Translations under genes and position numbers: made by a program | The notes under the pieces: model-generated | Database searches by the model: none | Seen by the model: only the letters and a program-made list of their open reading frames with translations | What the model was told of the DNA's origin: nothing | Assembly (NCBI GenBank): GCA_964499685.1 | Contig: CAZCLW010000002.1 | Coordinates: 93,013 to 157,012 of the forward strand | DNA length: 64,000 bases | Origin: an uncultured Planctomycetales bacterium | GTDB lineage: Bacteria; Omnitrophota; Gorgyraeia; Zapsychrales; GWA2-47-8 | Direction: 5' to 3' | Part shown: in pieces, positions 53,844-58,539 of the stretch | How positions within the stretch are numbered: the first letter of the stretch is position 1 | How the letters are laid out: each line of letters starts with the position of its first letter

Positions 53844-54896
53844 ATGTTCATGCGGTTATATCCGCCGGGTATTGTAAAGGGATTGACGGGAGTCGGTTTC
53901 CTTTCTATCTTGATCGTCATCGGGTCGCGCAAGCTCTTCTACTTTGACGCCGCCTTGATTCCCTACCTTATTGCTACCGTCTTCGCCGTCTTTGGCTGTA
54001 TTTACCGCTATTCGGTCTGGCTTTTTCGTCCTCCGACGAGAATTCTATGGCAGCGCAGCCTGAAAATGGTTTTTAACCGTGATTTTCTCCCCAATATGGG
54101 CCTTGTCGTAAAGGCATTCTTCGAAAATATTTTCCTGCAGAAATTCATCAGCAAACGCAGCCCCTATCGGTGGATCATGCATTTTCTTTTGGCCTGGGGA
54201 TGTATTTTAGGGTTCGCGATCACTTTTCCGCTGGTATTCGGGTGGCTCCATTTTGCCAATCCTCCCGGCGCGTTCCATATGTATCAATTATACCTTTTCG
54301 GTTTTTCCACGGTTATCTTTGACCCTTACGGCATCATCGGTTTTTTATTCTTTAATGCTTTGAATTTTTGTTCGTTAATGATCGTCATCGGGACGCTGAT
54401 GGCCTTCGGCCGCCGCTTGGTGCATCCGGGCGAGGTGACGACCCAAACCTTTGCCGATGACCTTTTACCGCTGATCATTCTGTTTCTTGTCGCTGTCTCC
54501 GGTCTTTTTTTGACTTTCAGTATGCATTACTTGGGAGGGCAGCATTACCGCGTTCTTTCCACCGTCCATTGCTGGACGGTCGTTGCCTTTTTGGTTTATC
54601 TGCCGTTCGGCAAATTTTTCCATATTTTCCAGCGTTCGGCCCAGATGGGCGCAGAGCTGTATATCCGTGAAAAAGAAACGGGAACACCGGCCGTTTGTCC
54701 CAAGACCGGCGAGAGGTTTATCAGCGAAGTACAAAAAGAGGACGTCAAAAAACTTTTGCAGGAAATTGGTTTTAAGTTCCAGGCAGGGGAAAATGAGATT
54801 TCAGTCCAGGACTTAAGCCCGCGGGCCAGGCGCCAACTTCTCGTGGCGGCCCAGCACAAACGCATTAACGGAAAGTTTGACATCGCCAAAGATTAG
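53844..54896 (+). CDS. NarI/DsrM/HdrE-like diheme cytochrome b membrane subunit with cytoplasmic C-terminal extension
   Basis: 5-6 TM helices with paired His in helices (HFLLAW...GWLHF; HYRVLSTVH) and a YLPFGKFFHIF block of the NarI family. C-terminal soluble domain of about 90 aa. Confidence 0.45.
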   Translation: MFMRLYPPGIVKGLTGVGFLSILIVIGSRKLFYFDAALIPYLIATVFAVFGCIYRYSVWLFRPPTRILWQRSLKMVFNRDFLPNMGLVVKAFFENIFLQKFISKRSPYRWIMHFLLAWGCILGFAITFPLVFGWLHFANPPGAFHMYQLYLFGFSTVIFDPYGIIGFLFFNALNFCSLMIVIGTLMAFGRRLVHPGEVTTQTFADDLLPLIILFLVAVSGLFLTFSMHYLGGQHYRVLSTVHCWTVVAFLVYLPFGKFFHIFQRSAQMGAELYIREKETGTPAVCPKTGERFISEVQKEDVKKLLQEIGFKFQAGENEISVQDLSPRARRQLLVAAQHKRINGKFDIAKD

Positions 54897-54908
54897 CAGG
54901 AGATCATC

Positions 54909-57095
54909 GTGGCAAGATTACCGATCGAAGAAGAGAAGATCATTGAGGAATTCGGACCGCATGTGAAACATGAGCCGCCCGGCGGGTGGGAGGCGTCCGT
55001 CGTCGAGCCTGATAAGCGCGTGAAAACACATTGCTGCTTCTGTGGACAGCAGTGCGGGATCATCCTGAAGGTCAAGAACAATGAGGTAACGGGGTTTGAC
55101 CCTTGGGAGGCCTTCCCTTTCAATCAAGGGAAACTCTGCCCGAAAGGTGTGAAGCGTTATATGCAGGGCAGTCATCCCGACCGGTTGATGCATCCCCTTG
55201 AAAATAATTTTGGTAAGGGTTATGAACGGGTTTCATGGGACAAGACGTACAGCCGTGTCGTGTCGGAAATTCAGCGCATCCAGCAGAAATACGGTAAAGA
55301 CAGCTTTGCCATGCTTTCGGGTGTCTCCCTTTCGAATGAGAAGTCTTACCTCGTCGGAAAATTTGCCCGGGTCGCCTTGCAGACGGCCAATTTGGATTAC
55401 AACGGACGTTTATGTATGGTTTCGGCCGGGGCCGGGAACAAGAAGGCCTTTGGAGTGGACCGTGCCGCCAATTCCTGGGCAGATCTTTTGGAGACCGATC
55501 TTATCCTTTGCGCCGGGACCAATGTCTCGGAATGCGCGCCCATTACGACGGATTATATCTGGAAGGCGCGTGACATGCGTAAAGCCAAATTGATCGTCGT
55601 GGACCCGCGCATCACGCCGATCGCCCGTACCGCCGACCTTATTCTTCCCGTCCGTCCGGGAACGGATTCCTATTTATTCAACACCCTTCTGAACCTGATT
55701 ATCCGGGCCGGTGATATAGATGAAGAATTTATTCGCGATCATACGCTTGGTTTTGAGGAGGTTAAAAAGACCGTAGAAAAGTATACGGTCGAAGAATGCG
55801 AACGGATCACGGGTGTCCCGGCCAAAAGCATCAGGCTCGCCGCGGAATGGTGGGGAAAGGCCAAGAGGAGCTTTCTTTTGCATGCGCGGGGGATCGAGCA
55901 TCACACCAAGGGCGTCGATAACGTGCTTTCTTGTATTAATCTTGTGTTGGCAACGGGCCGTATCGGTAAGATCGGCTGCGGCTACGCGACGATTACTGGA
56001 CAAGGCAACGGTCAAGGCGGCCGGGAACACGGCCATAAATGCGACCAGCTCCCCGGCAACCGGGACATCACTAATCCCGAACACCGTCAATATATCGCCA
56101 AGGTCTGGGGGATCGAAGAAAAGGACCTCCCCGGGAAAGGTTTATCGGCCCAGGAGATCATGAATGAGATTCATGCGGGAAAGATCAAGGGCTTGATCAG
56201 CATTTGTTTTAATCCGCTGGTGAGCCTCCCCGACGCCAATTTTACCAGAGAGGCCTTGGAAAAATTGGAATTTTATGTCGCGATCGATTTCTTTTTAAGC
56301 GAAACCGCCCGTTACGCGGATATTATCTTGCCCGGGTCTTTGCATGAGGAGGATGATGGTACCTCGACGTCGGCCGAAGGCCGGGTTATCCGCATTCAAA
56401 AGGCGGTCAACCCGCCGGGCGAAGCGAAAGTGGACTGGGAAATTCTTCTGGAAATAGCCAATCGCCTTGGAAAAGGGAAATATTTCAATTTTAAAAACCC
56501 TGAAGAAATGTTCAATGAATTACGTGTTGCCTCCAAAGGCGGAACAGCGGATTATTACGGGATCACTTATGAGAAGATCGATAAGAACATGGGTGTCTTC
56601 TGGCCATGTCCGAGCTTGGACCATCCCGGGACCCCGCGGTTGTTTGAAGACGGGAAATTTTATCATCCTGACGGAAAAGCACGATTTAATATGGTCGAAT
56701 ATAAACCTTCGGCCGATGAGATAAACAGTGAATACCCGATCTATTTGACGACGGGCCGCGTGATCTATCATTATCTTTCCGGAACGCAAACGCGCCGCAT
56801 CGGATTTCTGGCCGATCAGTCTCCTGGGCCATATGTTGAGATCCACCCCGCCTTGGCGCAGAAGTATGAGATTAAGGAAGGGGATCTGGTCAGGATAACA
56901 TCGCGCCGGGATTCGATCGAATTGAGAGCCAGGGTGGTCAAAACTATCCGGCCGGACACTTTGTTTGTCCCTTATCACTGGGCCGGCAGGCAATCCATAA
57001 ACCGTTTAACCCAGCGGGCGCTCGATCCGGTCTCCAAGATCCCGGAATTCAAAATGAGCGCTGTTCGCATCGAAAAGATCGAAAAAAGCAAATGA
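54909..57095 (+). CDS. Molybdopterin (bis-MGD) oxidoreductase catalytic subunit, NasA/NarB/FdhA-type; no TAT signal
   Basis: N-terminal 4Fe-4S motif [10 protein letters not shown]27-C with GKLCPKG. MGD-binding blocks. C-terminal MopB_CT-like barrel. 728 aa. Confidence 0.8.
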
Positions 57096-57703
57096 ACCAA
57101 TGGCTGGAAGAAAACGATCTGTTCATCGACCCGCAACGCTGTATCGGCTGCCGGGCCTGTGAAGCGGCCTGTGCTGAATGCGGGACCCACCGGGGGGTTC
57201 CCATGATCCACTTGGAACCTTATGACCGCGCTGAGTCGGTCAAGACCGCCCCTACCTTATGTATGCATTGTGATGATCCCGCCTGTGCCGCGGTCTGTCC
57301 GGCCGATGCCATTAAGCGCACAGAAGACGGTATAGTCCAATCATCGACCAAATCACGCTGCATCGGATGTTCTAACTGTTATGTGGCCTGTCCGTTCGGT
57401 GTTCCGAAAATTTACAAGGCCCGGGCGCAGATGAATAAATGCGATATGTGTTATGACCGGACCTCCGTCGGCCTCAAGCCCATGTGCGCCACTGTCTGTC
57501 CGTCTGAGGCGATCTATTTCGGGCCGAAGTCGGTCATTGAATCCCGGCGCAGCAATAAAGCGAACAACCAATTCGTCTTCGGCCGGCAGAAGATCACGAC
57601 CAAGGTCTATGTCATGATGGACCGCTCCGATGAGGCCATTGAATTGGACGTGATGGAATTTATCAGCACCAACATCGAAGATCCGCAGCCCTGGATCGCA
57701 TAG
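57092..57703 (+). CDS. Four-cluster 4Fe-4S ferredoxin-type electron-transfer subunit (FdnH/DmsB/NrfC-like)
   Basis: [37 protein letters not shown] and [21 protein letters not shown]. The start overlaps the catalytic-subunit stop. Confidence 0.8.
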
Positions 57704-57715
57704 AGAGAAGGAATT

Positions 57716-58261
57716 ATGTCCGCACCTCAAGATCCGATTGAAAAAAGACTGAAGGAAAAATACAGGGAAATCCCGAAATGGTTCGAGGATTTTCCGCTCG
57801 ACAATCAACGGGATGCCAACATTTCGCGGAGGGATTTTATCCGTTATTTAGGGTTGGTCTCGTTCGGTTTTTTCAGCGGCACGGCCGGCGTATGGATAAG
57901 ATCGCTTTTCCGCACTTCGACGGAACGCCGTTATGAACCCATGCGGATCGTGGGAAAAGATGATCTAAGGGTGGGAGAATCCTATGTGTTCCAAATTCCG
58001 GGTTTCAAGGAGCCGGTGATCCTTGTGCGTTTAAACAACGAGGAGTTCGTCGCCTACGGGCAGAAGTGTACGCATTTGCAGTGTCCGGTCATTTGGAAAA
58101 AGGAGGAAAATATTTTCTTCTGTCCTTGTCATAAAGGGGCTTTTAAATCAAGCGGAGAGGTTTTTTACGGTCCCCCGGAACGGCCGCTCCCCAAACTGAA
58201 ACTGGAGGTCAGGCCGGAAGGTATTTATTTTGTGGGTATGGAACGGGGAGAATTGGTATGA
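57716..58261 (+). CDS. Membrane-anchored Rieske [2Fe-2S] protein (TAT motif)
   Basis: SRRDFIRYLGLVSFGFFSGTAGVWI (twin-Arg plus TM helix). Rieske boxes CTHLQCPV and CPCHKGAF. Confidence 0.8.
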   Translation: MSAPQDPIEKRLKEKYREIPKWFEDFPLDNQRDANISRRDFIRYLGLVSFGFFSGTAGVWIRSLFRTSTERRYEPMRIVGKDDLRVGESYVFQIPGFKEPVILVRLNNEEFVAYGQKCTHLQCPVIWKKEENIFFCPCHKGAFKSSGEVFYGPPERPLPKLKLEVRPEGIYFVGMERGELV

Positions 58262-58539
58262 GATTCGCCGACAAAAAAGAACAATTTATCCGCACGATCG
58301 AAATGGTTTCACTGACGATCAGCTTGGGTGCCGTGTTTTTCCAGATCTGGATCCTGATAACGGCGCTGGAGGCTTTTTTCAGGGGGCAGTATAAGGTCCT
58401 GCTGCCCAGCCTGATCTTAAGCGGTTTGGCCTTTCTCGCATGCGCCGTCGGGGCGCTGCTAACCAATATTCCCTTCTTAAAAGGAATTTATGCGGGACGC
58501 AGCCAGAATTATTCGGAAGCTAAACGGGGGATGAAATGA
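58258..58539 (+). CDS. Small two-to-three-helix membrane protein, hypothetical
   Basis: 93 aa. Translationally coupled between the Rieske and transporter genes (overlapping stops and starts). Confidence 0.4.
   Translation: MRFADKKEQFIRTIEMVSLTISLGAVFFQIWILITALEAFFRGQYKVLLPSLILSGLAFLACAVGALLTNIPFLKGIYAGRSQNYSEAKRGMK

What the first reader, a model, noticed from the sequence alone, without database searches (positions are those of the whole stretch)
53844..58539. Unusual membrane-bound molybdoenzyme: NarI/DsrM-like cytochrome b, cytoplasm-facing NasA/FdhA-type catalytic subunit, four-cluster FeS subunit and a TAT/TM-anchored Rieske protein
The catalytic subunit (728 aa) has the C-x2-C-x3-C-x27-C plus GKLCPKG N-terminal cluster of assimilatory nitrate reductases and formate dehydrogenases. 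It has no twin-arginine signal, so it should be cytoplasmic. It is nonetheless embedded between a NarI-like diheme b membrane subunit and a DmsB/FdnH-like FeS subunit, as in respiratory complexes. A TAT-targeted, TM-anchored Rieske protein follows, and then a 93-aa membrane protein. Rieske subunits with Mo-bisPGD enzymes are otherwise characteristic of arsenite oxidase (AioAB), which is periplasmic. This topology mix is not a described complex. The adjacent NarK-like porter, MOSC protein, NnrS and nirK argue that the substrate is nitrate or nitrite.
Basis: partly seen in the sequence, partly recalled or inferred. Interest (0 to 1): 0.65.

Follow-up and report, generated by a model that had tools for sequence, protein, structure and literature searches.

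The report
Rieske-containing membrane-bound NasC-type nitrate reductase
This is a real, tightly conserved five-gene operon for a membrane-anchored nitrate reductase built from an "assimilatory-type" catalytic subunit, a NarI-like cytochrome b, a four-cluster iron-sulfur protein, a bc1-type Rieske protein and a tiny membrane subunit; the complex is widespread in bacteria (including cultured ones), mis-annotated and has never been characterised.

Summary
In detail: five tightly spaced or overlapping genes at 53844-58539 encode a NarI-superfamily cytochrome b, a Mo-bisPGD subunit, a 4x[4Fe-4S] protein, a Tat-motif/TM-anchored bc-type Rieske protein and a 93-aa 2-TM protein. narK and a MOSC gene follow in the same operon.

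The catalytic subunit is a nitrate reductase, not a formate dehydrogenase. It has a Cys-Met active-site motif and sits inside the NasC clade, with FdhF sequences separate at 100% bootstrap.

The Rieske gene is not there by chance. The same gene order occurs in all 31 loci found through the Rieske protein and all 6 found through the cytochrome b. These span Omnitrophota, Desulfobacterales, Elusimicrobiota, Acidimicrobiia, Binatia, Bacteroidota, Deinococcus and Brevibacillus.

NarK-cytochrome b fusions, NarI homology and linkage to cytoplasmic nitrate and nitrite genes place the active site in the cytoplasm. The invariant RRxF motif and bc-type disulfide cysteines place the Rieske domain outside.

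Most likely this is a quinol:nitrate oxidoreductase that works like NarGHI with non-Nar parts. Here it would feed NirK denitrification; other lineages link it to NirBD assimilation. The Rieske's role is unresolved.

Only one preprint (Apibacter) noticed the cluster, and it misread it. I rate it a new variant of a known kind, of high interest.

The parts
53844..54896 (+). Membrane anchor: a NarI-superfamily cytochrome b. It has 6 TM helices and probably binds two haems. It also has a P-side beta loop and an ~85-aa cytoplasmic C-terminal domain.
   Evidence: No Pfam hit. Weak NCBIfam hits to QmoC, TmcC and TcuB. AF2 model with pLDDT 81 and pTM 0.72. Foldseek matches EtfD at probability 1.00 and NarI at 0.99. 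hhalign against E. coli NarI aligns H242 with H187 and H260 with H205. H113, H242 and H260 are invariant; H136 is conserved in at least 90% of sequences. Natural NarK-cytochrome b fusions place the N-terminus in the cytoplasm.
54909..57095 (+). Catalytic subunit: a NasC-clade Mo-bisPGD nitrate reductase with an N-terminal [4Fe-4S] cluster and Cys169 as the Mo ligand. It has no Tat signal. It carries a clade-specific ~30-aa N-terminal extension.
   Evidence: Pfam Molybdop_Fe4S4, Molybdopterin and Molydop_binding. NCBIfam NasC scores 854 bits (cutoff 1100), above Fdh-alpha at 620 bits. The motif IDYNGRLC169MVSAG aligns with the Nas/Nap Cys-Met motif, whereas FdhF references have (U/C)-H (three of four) or C-Q. 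The NJ tree places it in the NasC group, with the FdhF clade separate at 100%. The N-terminal extension MAxLP...FGPH...PPGGW is absent from soluble NasC.
57092..57703 (+). Electron-transfer subunit with four [4Fe-4S] clusters (DmsB/FdnH/NarH superfamily). It is soluble, with no Tat signal and no TM segment.
   Evidence: Pfam Fer4_11. NCBIfam hits to HybA, DmsB and FDH-beta at ~100 bits, all below their cutoffs. Best PDB match is FdnH at 98 bits. All four Cys motifs are conserved across phyla.
57716..58261 (+). bc1/b6f-type Rieske [2Fe-2S] protein. From N to C it has a conserved cytoplasmic tail (PKW-EDFP), a twin-arginine motif (SRRDFIR) with an uncleaved TM anchor, and a small Rieske domain predicted to lie on the outer (P) side.
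   Evidence: Pfam Rieske. All PDB hits are bc1, b6f or AioB Rieske proteins. It is 34% identical over its full length, including the RR motif and TM, to the window's own bc-complex Rieske. The cluster boxes CTHLQC and CPCH include both disulfide cysteines. RRxF is invariant from Firmicutes to Bacteroidota.
58258..58539 (+). Small fifth subunit with 2 TM helices (DUF6755-like) and an invariant Gln in TM1. Both termini are predicted to be cytoplasmic.
   Evidence: Pfam DUF6755 at 23 bits, below threshold. A 61-99-aa 2-TM ORF follows the Rieske gene in Omnitrophota, Bacteroidota, Deinococcus, Brevibacillus, Acidimicrobiia and Binatia. In L013 it reads in frame into the NarK-like gene.
58536..59813 (+). 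NarK-family nitrate/nitrite MFS porter. Its start codon overlaps the stop codon of the fifth subunit.
   Evidence: Pfam MFS_1; TIGR00886 NarK family at 163 bits, below its cutoff of 311.7. NarK-like genes flank the cluster in most loci. In some genomes NarK is fused to the cytochrome b.
59821..60267 (+). MOSC-domain protein, the last gene of the operon. It is an accessory gene, possibly related to Moco handling.
   Evidence: Pfam MOSC. It co-occurs with the cluster in many Omnitrophota loci and lies beside Moco biosynthesis genes in Apibacter.
52524..53789 (+). NnrS (haem-copper membrane protein of NO-responsive regulons), immediately upstream. Context gene.
   Evidence: Pfam NnrS at 83 bits. 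It also lies near the cluster in L020 and L025.
60798..61961 (+). Copper nitrite reductase NirK, a periplasmic consumer of the nitrite produced. Context gene.
   Evidence: TIGR02376 at 336 bits, above its cutoff of 296. It also lies next to the cluster in L009, L020 and L025.

Best explanation
The five genes encode one membrane complex that reduces nitrate to nitrite on the cytoplasmic side with electrons from the (mena)quinol pool. It is a functional analogue of NarGHI assembled from different parts.

Proposed route:
1. Quinol is oxidised at the outer face of a NarI-type cytochrome b. The Tat-inserted Rieske domain and the small 2-TM subunit contribute to that site, and the protons are released outside.
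2. Electrons cross the membrane through the b haems (H242/H136 distal, H113/H260 proximal).
3. They pass through the four [4Fe-4S] clusters of the FeS subunit and the [4Fe-4S] cluster of the catalytic subunit.
4. They reach a Cys169-ligated Mo-bisPGD centre, which reduces nitrate imported by NarK.
5. Nitrite leaves through NarK. In this organism it is reduced by periplasmic NirK, so the pathway is dissimilatory (denitrification-type). In other lineages the same complex feeds cytoplasmic NirBD for assimilation.

The redox loop should conserve energy, as in NarGHI.

Shown here: subunit identities, the nitrate-reductase-type active site, obligatory synteny, and cytoplasmic orientation of the cytochrome b termini.

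Inferred: quinol as the donor, haem number and ligation, the outside location of the Rieske domain, and its role as an in-line relay or quinol-site component.
For: Nitrate as substrate:
- The Cys-Met active-site motif matches Nas/Nap; the FdhF references have (U/C)-H or C-Q there instead.
- The Mo subunit lies in the NasC clade at 82-83% bootstrap, with the FdhF clade separate at 100%.
- The NasC HMM is the best hit.
- The cluster is linked to narK in nearly all loci and to nirK/nnrS or nirBD/nrtABC-like genes.

One complex:
- Start/stop overlaps indicate translational coupling.
- Gene order is identical in 31 of 31 Rieske-seeded loci and 6 of 6 cytochrome-b-seeded loci, across at least 8 phyla.

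Cytoplasmic active site:
- The Mo and FeS subunits have no Tat or Sec signal.
- The Mo subunit nests within soluble cytoplasmic NasC enzymes.
- NarI homology puts the anchor's C-terminus and partner face in the cytoplasm.
- MFS-cytochrome b fusions (P0245, P0277, P0294) fix the N-terminus inside. With six TM helices, the C-terminal domain is inside too.
- The K/R-rich TM2-TM3 loop (read from the sequence) and conserved cytoplasmic loops fit this topology.
- In L051, ABC-type nitrate importer genes are embedded in the operon, and nirBD lies adjacent in L031, L051 and L052.
- Both the Mo subunit and the Rieske protein have conserved N-terminal arms that could dock partners.

Rieske domain outside:
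- R-R-x-F followed by a moderately hydrophobic helix is invariant in every lineage.
- It is 34% identical over its full length to the organism's own bc-complex Rieske.
- Both disulfide cysteines of bc-type Rieske proteins are present.
- PDB hits are exclusively respiratory Rieske proteins.
Against: - There are no biochemical data for any member of the family.
- NarGHI needs no Rieske protein, so the model does not explain why one is strictly conserved.
- No acceptor for a Rieske electron is encoded in the cluster.
- Electron transfer from a Rieske cluster to a b haem would probably be uphill.
- The putative distal-haem ligand H136 is Arg or Asp in Deinococcus and in the nirBD-linked variants, so a two-haem wire is not certain in all members.
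- The FeS subunit scores best against the periplasm-facing FdnH, HybA and DmsB.
- The NasC HMM score (854 bits) is below the curated cutoff (1100).
- The Foldseek and hhalign statistics for NarI are modest (E = 0.2 and 1.5e-4).
- Topology rests on sequence logic, not on a multimer model or experiment.
Confidence: 0.55

Rival explanations
1. Branched, bc1-like quinol oxidation. The outward-facing Rieske cluster takes one electron of each quinol and passes it to a periplasmic acceptor (NirK directly, or a cytochrome c or cupredoxin). The second electron goes through the b haems to cytoplasmic nitrate reduction. One complex would then feed two denitrification steps on opposite sides of the membrane.
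For: The Rieske protein is of the bc type and is a homologue of the cell's own bc-complex Rieske. nirK is adjacent in the window and in L009, L020 and L025. In all known systems, Rieske clusters at quinol sites pass electrons to a P-side carrier (established knowledge of bc1/b6f). The window also encodes multihaem cytochromes c.
Against: No periplasmic acceptor gene is conserved with the cluster. Apibacter, Olivibacter, Deinococcus and Brevibacillus loci have no nirK nearby, and L031, L051 and L052 carry cytoplasmic nirBD instead. Box II reads CPCH-K-G-A-F and lacks the Ser and Tyr that raise bc1 Rieske potentials (interpretation from established knowledge). Nitrate at about +420 mV needs no low-potential branch.
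Confidence: 0.15
2. In this organism the complex is an assimilatory nitrate reductase that simply draws on quinol. The neighbouring nirK and nnrS genes are unrelated to it.
For: The catalytic subunit belongs to the NasC clade, whose characterised members are assimilatory. Related clusters sit in clear assimilation operons with nirBD and an ABC nitrate importer.
Against: The window has no assimilatory nitrite reductase within 64 kb of the cluster by tblastn with NirB and NirD. The flanking genes are nnrS, narK, nirK and a NarL-type response regulator. nirK is repeatedly adjacent in related Omnitrophota loci. Apibacter is reported to lack the nitrite-detoxification genes that related clades carry, and there the cluster is read as respiratory.
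Confidence: 0.12
3. Tat hitch-hiking. The Mo and FeS subunits assemble with the Rieske protein in the cytoplasm and are exported together on its twin-arginine signal, as AioA is exported with AioB. The result would be a periplasm-facing nitrate reductase tethered to the cytochrome b.
For: The only export signal in the set is on the Rieske protein. Arsenite oxidase exports its signal-less Mo subunit in this way (established knowledge). The FeS subunit resembles the periplasm-facing FdnH, HybA and DmsB most closely.
Against: NarI-type anchors dock their partners on the cytoplasmic face, and the anchor has a conserved cytoplasmic C-terminal domain. narK is translationally coupled to the cluster or even fused to the anchor. 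An ABC nitrate importer and cytoplasmic nirBD lie in the same operons. The Mo subunit nests among cytoplasmic NasC enzymes. The Rieske N-terminal tail upstream of the RR motif is conserved, which is unusual for a mere signal n-region.
Confidence: 0.07
4. The catalytic subunit is not a nitrate reductase. It would be a formate dehydrogenase, or a reductase or oxidase for another oxyanion such as arsenite, chlorate or selenate.
For: The best matches among solved structures are FdhF-type formate dehydrogenases, although no Nas structure exists in the PDB. The Fdh-alpha HMM scores 620 bits, just under its cutoff of 666.
Against: The active-site motif is Cys-Met, whereas the FdhF references have Sec/Cys-His or Cys-Gln. 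The FdhF references form a separate clade at 100% bootstrap. AioA and ArrA HMM scores are far below their cutoffs. Every genomic context concerns nitrate or nitrite.
Confidence: 0.03

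Closest known systems
NarGHI (respiratory membrane-bound nitrate reductase A)
   Same: The overall logic is the same. A haem-b anchor of the NarI superfamily carries a cytoplasm-facing four-cluster protein and a Mo-bisPGD nitrate reductase, and the genes are linked to narK. 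The predicted redox-loop energetics are also the same.
   Different: The catalytic subunit is a ~730-aa Cys-ligated NasC-type enzyme, not the ~1250-aa Asp-ligated NarG (TIGR01580 scores 59 bits against a cutoff of 1084). The FeS subunit has 203 aa, not ~510, and has four all-Cys motifs. No NarJ is encoded. The anchor has 6 TM helices plus a C-terminal domain, against 5 TM helices in NarI. Two extra membrane subunits are present: the Rieske protein and the 2-TM protein.
Assimilatory nitrate reductases NasC/NasA/NarB (including P. denitrificans NasC with the Rieske-type ferredoxin NasG)
   Same: The catalytic subunit is phylogenetically inside the NasC group, with the same Cys ligand and FS0 motif and a cytoplasmic location. 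Some relatives lie in nirBD operons. A Rieske-fold protein as an electron partner also has a precedent in NasG.
   Different: Known Nas enzymes are soluble and take electrons from NAD(P)H (via NasB/NasG), ferredoxin or flavodoxin. Here the partners are a membrane cytochrome b, a four-cluster protein and a Tat/TM-anchored bc-type Rieske protein, not a soluble NirD-type one. Published surveys state that this clade has no four-cluster or membrane-anchor partners (PMC7331816).
Rieske/cytochrome b complexes (bc1, b6f), including the Rieske/cyt b genes in haloarchaeal Nar and Caldithrix Nap clusters
   Same: The Rieske subunit has the same architecture: RR motif, TM anchor and the CTHLxC/CPCH boxes with disulfide cysteines. 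Both are associated with quinol oxidation. There is genomic precedent for Rieske modules in nitrate-reductase loci.
   Different: The partner cytochrome b is not of the bc type. It has no PF00033/PF00032 hit, and its fold and haem-ligand pattern are those of NarI. No cytochrome c1/f or other P-side acceptor is present. In the haloarchaeal and Caldithrix cases the reductase (pNarG or NapA) is periplasmic and the Rieske/cyt b unit is a conventional bc module.
Arsenite oxidase AioAB
   Same: A Mo-bisPGD subunit of the same large clade works with a Tat-signal-bearing Rieske subunit, and the Mo subunit lacks its own signal.
   Different: Aio has no amino-acid Mo ligand, has a [3Fe-4S] cluster, lacks both the four-cluster subunit and the cytochrome b, and is wholly periplasmic. 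The HMM scores here are far below the cutoffs (AioA 171 against 359; AioB 33 against 96).
Other NarI-superfamily anchors with cytoplasmic partners (HdrE, DsrM, QmoC, TmcC, TcuB, EtfD)
   Same: These give the best sequence and fold matches for the 350-aa anchor. All connect the quinone pool to a cytoplasmic iron-sulfur partner.
   Different: Their partners are CCG-domain (HdrD-like) proteins, not a Mo-bisPGD enzyme. As far as I know, none works with a Rieske protein.

Membership tests
NarGHI respiratory nitrate reductase | NarG-type catalytic subunit (type II DMSO reductase family, Asp ligand, ~1200 aa) | tested here: not met
   TIGR01580 narG scores 59 bits against a cutoff of 1084. The protein has 728 aa, a Cys169 ligand motif and clusters with NasC.
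NarGHI respiratory nitrate reductase | NarH-type beta subunit | tested here: not met
   TIGR01660 narH scores 46.8 bits against a cutoff of 524. The protein has 203 aa, against ~510 in NarH.
NarGHI respiratory nitrate reductase | NarI-type dihaem cytochrome b anchor with His ligands on two helices | tested here: inconclusive
   The fold and the helix-V His pair match NarI. H113, H242 and H260 are invariant, but the fourth ligand, H136, is not universal. The statistics are modest, there is no Pfam PF02665 hit for the window protein, and haem content is untested.
NarGHI respiratory nitrate reductase | NarJ assembly chaperone in the operon | tested here: not met
   No such gene lies among the operon genes. 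No NarJ-like gene is called in the Olivibacter, Apibacter or Deinococcus loci either.
Assimilatory nitrate reductase NasC/NasA/NarB | Catalytic subunit in the Nas clade, with a Cys ligand and an N-terminal [4Fe-4S] cluster | tested here: met
   NasC is the best HMM hit (854 bits, though below the equivalog cutoff of 1100). The NJ tree gives 82-83% support inside the NasC group.
Assimilatory nitrate reductase NasC/NasA/NarB | Soluble enzyme with an NAD(P)H, ferredoxin or flavodoxin donor, co-encoded with an assimilatory nitrite reductase | tested here: not met
   The partners are a membrane cytochrome b, a four-cluster FeS protein and a TM-anchored Rieske protein. No NirB or NirD is found in the window. 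nirBD linkage exists only in some distant relatives.
Periplasmic nitrate reductase Nap | NapA with a Tat signal, plus NapB, NapC or NapGH partners | tested here: not met
   NapA HMMs score 284-289 bits against cutoffs of 904-930. The N-terminus has no RR motif. NapA references cluster elsewhere in the tree.
Arsenite oxidase AioAB | AioA (no protein Mo ligand, [3Fe-4S] cluster) with the AioB Rieske subunit | tested here: not met
   TIGR02693 scores 171 bits against 359, and TIGR02694 scores 33 bits against 95.65. The Cys ligand is present, whereas AioA has 'RPAYNSE' at that position.
Formate dehydrogenase (FdhF/FdhA type) | Sec/Cys-His active-site dipeptide and placement in the FDH clade | tested here: not met
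   The window protein has Cys-Met, whereas the FdhF references have U/C-H (three of four) or C-Q. The FdhF references form a separate clade at 100% bootstrap. TIGR01591 scores 620 bits against a cutoff of 666.
Rieske/cytochrome b (bc1/b6f) complexes | bc-type Rieske subunit (Tat/TM anchor, CTHLxC and CPCH boxes with the disulfide pair) | tested here: met
Rieske/cytochrome b (bc1/b6f) complexes | Cytochrome b of the PF00033/PF00032 family with 4 His on helices B and D | tested here: not met
   The 350-aa anchor has no Pfam hit. The window's genuine bc cytochrome b (37935-39077) hits PF00033 at 199 bits. The anchor's fold and His pattern are those of NarI.
Tat-dependent membrane insertion of the Rieske subunit | Functional twin-arginine signal-anchor that places the cluster domain on the P side | not testable with these tools
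   The motif S/T-R-R-x-F-[ILM] followed by a hydrophobic helix is invariant. Export itself needs experimental proof.

The most novel reading that the evidence does not exclude
This would be the first recognised pairing of a bc-type Rieske protein with a NarI-type, rather than bc-type, cytochrome b. That would make it a new kind of quinol-oxidising membrane module. It would also define a third architecture of energy-conserving nitrate reductase, beside Nar and Nap.

The complex is widespread in Bacteroidota, Deinococcota, Bacillota, Omnitrophota, Actinomycetota and others. Its catalytic subunit matches NasC best, so annotation pipelines probably count it as 'assimilatory NasC/NasA', and NCBI labels its anchor 'MFS transporter'.

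Because published DMSO-reductase-family trees place AioA next to NasC, this NasC-plus-Rieske complex could also be the evolutionary link that explains where arsenite oxidase got its Rieske partner.
Probability: 0.4. Interest if true: 0.85.

Novelty: new variant of a known kind. Interest (0 to 1): 0.72.

Why it matters
Nitrate reduction is usually assigned from marker genes: narG and napA are read as respiration, and nasA/nasC/narB as assimilation. This complex carries a NasC-type marker but has the architecture of an energy-conserving respiratory enzyme. In this window and several relatives it sits beside nirK. Metagenomic nitrogen-cycle budgets may therefore misassign a widespread enzyme; the anchor family alone has 1356 representatives at 50% identity.

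It contradicts the published generalisation that the Nas/Nap/Aio/FdhF clade never uses four-cluster and membrane-anchor partners (PMC7331816).

It also poses a clear bioenergetic question: what does a Rieske cluster do on a NarI-type cytochrome b? Because cultured, tractable hosts carry it (Brevibacillus laterosporus, several Deinococcus species, Olivibacter, Apibacter), that question can be tested directly.

Finally, it exposes a systematic annotation error: NCBI labels the cytochrome b 'MFS transporter', possibly because natural NarK-cytochrome b fusions exist.

Tried and rejected
- Formate dehydrogenase identity: rejected on the active-site motif and the tree.
- Chance adjacency of the Rieske gene: rejected on 37 of 37 syntenic loci.
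- cytochrome b-Mo fusion proteins as proof of topology: P0332 looks like frameshift noise, and the junction in P0370 looks frameshifted. Neither was used as evidence.
- Promoter and terminator scan of 52000-62500: no more sites than in shuffled sequence, so it was uninformative. The operon structure is inferred from gene spacing only.
- Literature: ten full-text searches covered DUF6755; Omnitrophota, Elusimicrobia and Flavobacteria with Rieske and nitrate reductase; NarK with Rieske and molybdopterin; NarI-like with Rieske; and menaquinol with assimilatory nitrate reductase. They found only the Apibacter preprint.
- Naming the source organism: the window's proteins are singletons without names. 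The closest relatives are Omnitrophota MAGs.
- Multimer modelling: not possible with the tools.

Full report
**1. What is there**

On the + strand, seven genes lie nearly without gaps:
- 53844-54896 (350 aa)
- 54909-57095 (728 aa)
- 57092-57703 (203 aa)
- 57716-58261 (181 aa)
- 58258-58539 (93 aa)
- 58536-59813 (425 aa)
- 59821-60267 (148 aa)

Three junctions are 4-nt start/stop overlaps and the remaining gaps are 7-12 nt, so this is one operon. Its first five genes are the finding. A consensus promoter/terminator scan gave nothing above chance.

Pfam and NCBIfam identify:
- a Mo-bisPGD oxidoreductase (Molybdop_Fe4S4, Molybdopterin, Molydop_binding);
- a four-cluster ferredoxin-like subunit (Fer4_11; DmsB, FdnH and HybA at ~100 bits);
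- a Rieske protein;
- a sub-threshold DUF6755 protein;
- a NarK-family MFS porter;
- a MOSC protein.

NnrS lies upstream. A response regulator and NirK (TIGR02376 at 336 bits, above its cutoff of 296) lie downstream.

**2. The catalytic subunit is a nitrate reductase of the NasC clade**

The best family model is NasC (854 bits, cutoff 1100). Fdh-alpha follows at 620 bits (cutoff 666), and NapA, AioA and NarG are far below their cutoffs. The best solved structures are FdhF-type formate dehydrogenases, but no Nas structure appeared among the PDB hits.

I therefore aligned the protein with annotated references taken from plasmid records. These were FdhF from four genera, NasA/NasC from six (five of them beside nirB), NapA from two and AioA from one. 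At the Mo-ligand position, the window protein and all its cluster-linked relatives read IDYNGRLC169MVSAG. The Nas and Nap references read R(L/F/Y/H)CM(A/S)SA. Three of the four FdhF references read AR(V/L)(U/C)H and the fourth reads SRYCQ.

In a neighbour-joining tree with 200 bootstraps:
- the cluster-linked subunits form a 100% clade;
- that clade is sister to the Brevibacillus laterosporus homologue (82%);
- both lie inside the NasC group of Paenibacillus, Skermanella and D. grandis (83%);
- the FdhF references form their own 100% clade.

The clade also has a conserved ~30-residue N-terminal extension (MAxLP..E.I.E.FGPH...PPGGW). It is absent from soluble NasC and is not a Tat signal. It looks like a docking arm.

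**3. The anchor is a NarI-superfamily cytochrome b**

The 350-aa protein has no Pfam hit. It hits QmoC, TmcC and TcuB weakly, and all three belong to the HdrE/DsrM/NarI superfamily.

An AlphaFold model built from 31 homologues (pLDDT 81, pTM 0.72) shows:
- six TM helices;
- amphipathic helices in the positively charged TM2-TM3 loop;
- a small beta-sheet loop on the opposite face;
- an ~85-residue C-terminal domain.

In Foldseek against the PDB, the only non-GPCR matches at probability ~1 are M. smegmatis EtfD (NarI-like domain) and E. coli NarI itself. hhalign against E. coli NarI (E = 1.5e-4) aligns TVH242 and PFGKFFH260 with NarI H187 and PFSRLIH205. From memory of the NarGHI structure, those are the helix-V ligands of the distal and proximal haems.

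H113, H242 and H260 are invariant. H136, on the outer face, is conserved in at least 90% of sequences, but it is Arg or Asp in Deinococcus and in two nirBD-linked variants.

Most lineages carry CxxC...CPxC in the C-terminal domain, which looks like a zinc ribbon. The window's own clade has lost three of the four cysteines.

**4. The Rieske protein is of the bc type and is never missing**

Its PDB matches are exclusively bc1, b6f and AioB Rieske proteins. It is 34% identical over its full length, including SRRDF and the hydrophobic helix, to the Rieske subunit of a conventional bc-type complex encoded 16 kb upstream in the same window.

It has both cluster boxes, CTHLQC and CPCH, including the two cysteines that form the disulfide in bc-type Rieske proteins.

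The motif R-R-x-F-[ILMA] followed by a helix is present in every homologue examined, in all the phyla sampled.

A conserved tail, P-K/x-W-x-x-D-F-P/S, precedes the RR motif. That is unusual for a signal n-region and suggests a contact on the cytoplasmic side.

Box II reads CPCH-K/H-G-A-F. It lacks the Ser and Tyr that raise the potential in bc1 Rieske proteins, so I infer a lower-potential, menaquinol-type cluster.

**5. Synteny**

A scan of one genome per species, seeded with a Rieske alignment, returned 31 loci. They come from Omnitrophota (the closest relatives, and probably the window's phylum), Desulfobacterales, Elusimicrobiota, Acidimicrobiia and Binatia. Every locus has the same gene order, cytochrome b, Mo, FeS, Rieske and the small protein, as far as the contig reaches. 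In L030 and L031 the small gene was found only by ORF inspection. The Mo subunit is 59-87% identical across them.

tblastn against plasmids found the set on megaplasmids of four cultured Deinococcus species. It also found it in Brevibacillus laterosporus B9.

The cytochrome b alone has 2271 homologous 90%-identity clusters. A profile search gives 1356 representatives at 50% identity with E < 1e-3, of which 271 have E < 1e-30. Many are from Bacteroidota.

All six contexts seeded from the cytochrome b carry the Rieske gene with it: Olivibacter, Apibacter, L050, L051, L052 and L053.

A 61-99-aa two-TM protein with an invariant Gln follows the Rieske gene in nearly all lineages. None was found in L052.

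**6. Topology**

Several observations place the Mo/FeS module in the cytoplasm:
- Neither subunit has a signal.
- The Mo subunit nests among cytoplasmic NasC enzymes.
- NarI-family anchors dock their partners on the inside (established knowledge).
- Three divergent natural fusions, P0245, P0277 and P0294, join a complete NarK-like MFS domain to the N-terminus of the cytochrome b. P0277 sits in a canonical cluster. MFS termini are cytoplasmic (established knowledge), so the anchor's N-terminus is inside. With six TM helices, its C-terminal domain is inside as well.
- narK is translationally coupled to the fifth subunit here, and in L013 the fifth-subunit ORF runs in frame into it.
- In L051 an ABC nitrate importer is inserted between the Mo and FeS genes, and nirBD is adjacent in L031, L051 and L052.

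The invariant Tat motif and the bc-type disulfide place the Rieske domain outside. The complex therefore spans the membrane, with redox centres on both faces.

The hitch-hiking alternative, in which everything is exported on the Rieske signal as in AioAB, is unlikely. I give it ~7%.

**7. How it most likely works**

The most economical reading is a quinol:nitrate oxidoreductase of NarGHI logic:
1. Quinol is oxidised on the outer face.
2. Electrons cross the membrane through the b haem(s).
3. They pass through four [4Fe-4S] clusters and FS0.
4. They reach Cys-ligated Mo-bisPGD, which reduces nitrate in the cytoplasm.
5. NarK exchanges nitrate for nitrite.

In this window the neighbours are nnrS, nirK and a NarL-like response regulator, and no NirB or NirD homologue is found in the 64-kb window. 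The local role is therefore probably dissimilatory. Elsewhere the same complex is embedded in assimilation operons.

The unresolved element is the Rieske protein. My preferred guess is that it forms part of the quinol site and relays its electron in line to the distal haem. A branched, bc1-like output to periplasmic acceptors such as NirK is the main rival (~15%). It is weakened because no P-side acceptor is conserved with the cluster.

**8. Comparison with what is known**

Functionally the complex is closest to NarGHI, but it fails the NarG, NarH and NarJ membership tests.

Phylogenetically the catalytic subunit is a NasC, but the complex fails the 'soluble, NAD(P)H/ferredoxin-dependent' criterion.

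It shares a Rieske partner with AioAB and with the Rieske/cytochrome b modules of haloarchaeal Nar (PMC3509893) and Caldithrix Nap (PMC5317091). However, its cytochrome b is not of the bc type and its reductase is not periplasmic.

A published survey of the family states that no member of the Nas/Aio/Nap/FdhF clade is associated with four-cluster or membrane-anchor subunits, and that NasA/NasC are exclusively assimilatory (PMC7331816).

The only mention of this cluster that I found is an Apibacter comparative-genomics preprint (10.1101/2020.09.30.321786). It calls the subunits NarG and NarH, says narI is missing and replaced by the Rieske protein, and counts three narK copies. In the Apibacter raozihei locus I examined (L047) there are two MFS genes plus the cytochrome b that NCBI labels 'MFS transporter', so one of the three is probably the cytochrome b. 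No biochemistry exists.

**9. Verdict**

The feature is real, strongly conserved and widespread, and it has not been characterised. It is a new variant of a known kind (membrane-bound Mo-bisPGD nitrate reductases) with an unprecedented module combination: a NarI-type cytochrome b with a bc-type Rieske protein. It is of high interest to bioenergetics and to nitrogen-cycle annotation.

The main caveats are that the topology, the donor and the Rieske function are inferred from sequence, and that my literature search covers only open-access full text.

Noticed in passing
window 36233-41264 (also 42175-45265): A conventional bc-type Rieske/cytochrome b complex with multihaem cytochromes c lies 16 kb upstream. 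It comprises a multihaem c (36233-37471), a 153-aa Tat-motif Rieske protein (37464-37925), a cytochrome b with PF00033 and PF00032 (37935-39077), a c554-like cytochrome (39064-39639) and a NapC/NirT-like protein (39747-41264). ResB and CcsA cytochrome c maturation genes follow. The organism therefore has two Rieske proteins, each paired with a different kind of cytochrome b.
   Followed up: partly
window 54696-54896 (cytochrome b residues 285-350); L010-L032: The cytoplasmic C-terminal domain of the anchor carries CxxC...CPxC in most lineages, which looks like a zinc ribbon. In the window's own clade (L005-L009, L022) only Cys285 survives, so the metal site appears to have been lost there.
   Followed up: partly
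cytochrome b residue 136 (window ~54249-54251); L032, L051, L052: The outer-face His136 is the presumed partner of His242 for the distal haem. It is Arg in Deinococcus sp. D7000 and L051, and Asp in L052. Distal-haem ligation in those lineages is unexplained.
   Followed up: no
P0245, P0277, P0294; L050 8001-10490; L013 6666-8400: Natural gene fusions exist. A NarK-like MFS domain is fused to the N-terminus of the cytochrome b in three divergent proteins, one of them in a canonical cluster. In L013 the small fifth subunit reads in frame into the NarK-like gene (579-aa ORF). These point to a physical transporter-reductase association.
   Followed up: partly
homologues of window 53844-54896 in public databases: NCBI annotation calls this cytochrome b 'MFS transporter' in Omnitrophota, Bacteroidota, Binatia, Elusimicrobiota and Deinococcus records. 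JGI calls some 'nitrate reductase gamma subunit'. The family has no Pfam model.
   Followed up: yes
L051 3364-14990; L052 3995-11418; L031 1-7700: Distant versions of the same set (cytochrome b, Mo, FeS, Rieske) lie inside nitrate-assimilation operons, with nirB/nirD. In L051 an NrtABC-like ABC importer is inserted between the Mo and FeS genes.
   Followed up: partly
L053 542-2054: On a 2-kb metagenomic contig, a cytochrome b homologue is followed directly by the Rieske gene with no Mo gene between them. This hints that the two form a module of their own.
   Followed up: no
window 59821-60267; L047 14700-20251: A MOSC-domain gene closes the operon here and in many Omnitrophota loci. In Apibacter and Olivibacter the cluster runs straight into Moco biosynthesis genes: MoeA and a MobA-like nucleotidyltransferase in both, plus MoaA, MoaD, MoaE, MoeB and MOSC in Apibacter. 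The MOSC protein may act in cofactor handling for this enzyme.
   Followed up: no
window 18001-20000: A low-GC island (GC 0.41 against ~0.51-0.55 elsewhere) holds three ORFs (17949-18353, 18390-19343, 19454-20479). It may be horizontally acquired.
   Followed up: no
window 45345-52563: Several genes lie between the cytochrome c maturation genes and nnrS. They are a PAS histidine kinase, a LuxR/NarL-type response regulator, a 501-aa ORF and a 302-aa ORF that were not scanned against any family library, a 166-aa protein that looks hemerythrin-like, and a 756-aa protein that looks like a ribonucleotide reductase. The family assignments are by eye from the translations only. They may form an anoxia- or NO-responsive neighbourhood.
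   Followed up: no
window 34004-36217: A 737-aa ORF immediately upstream of the bc-type complex has no Pfam hit.
   Followed up: no
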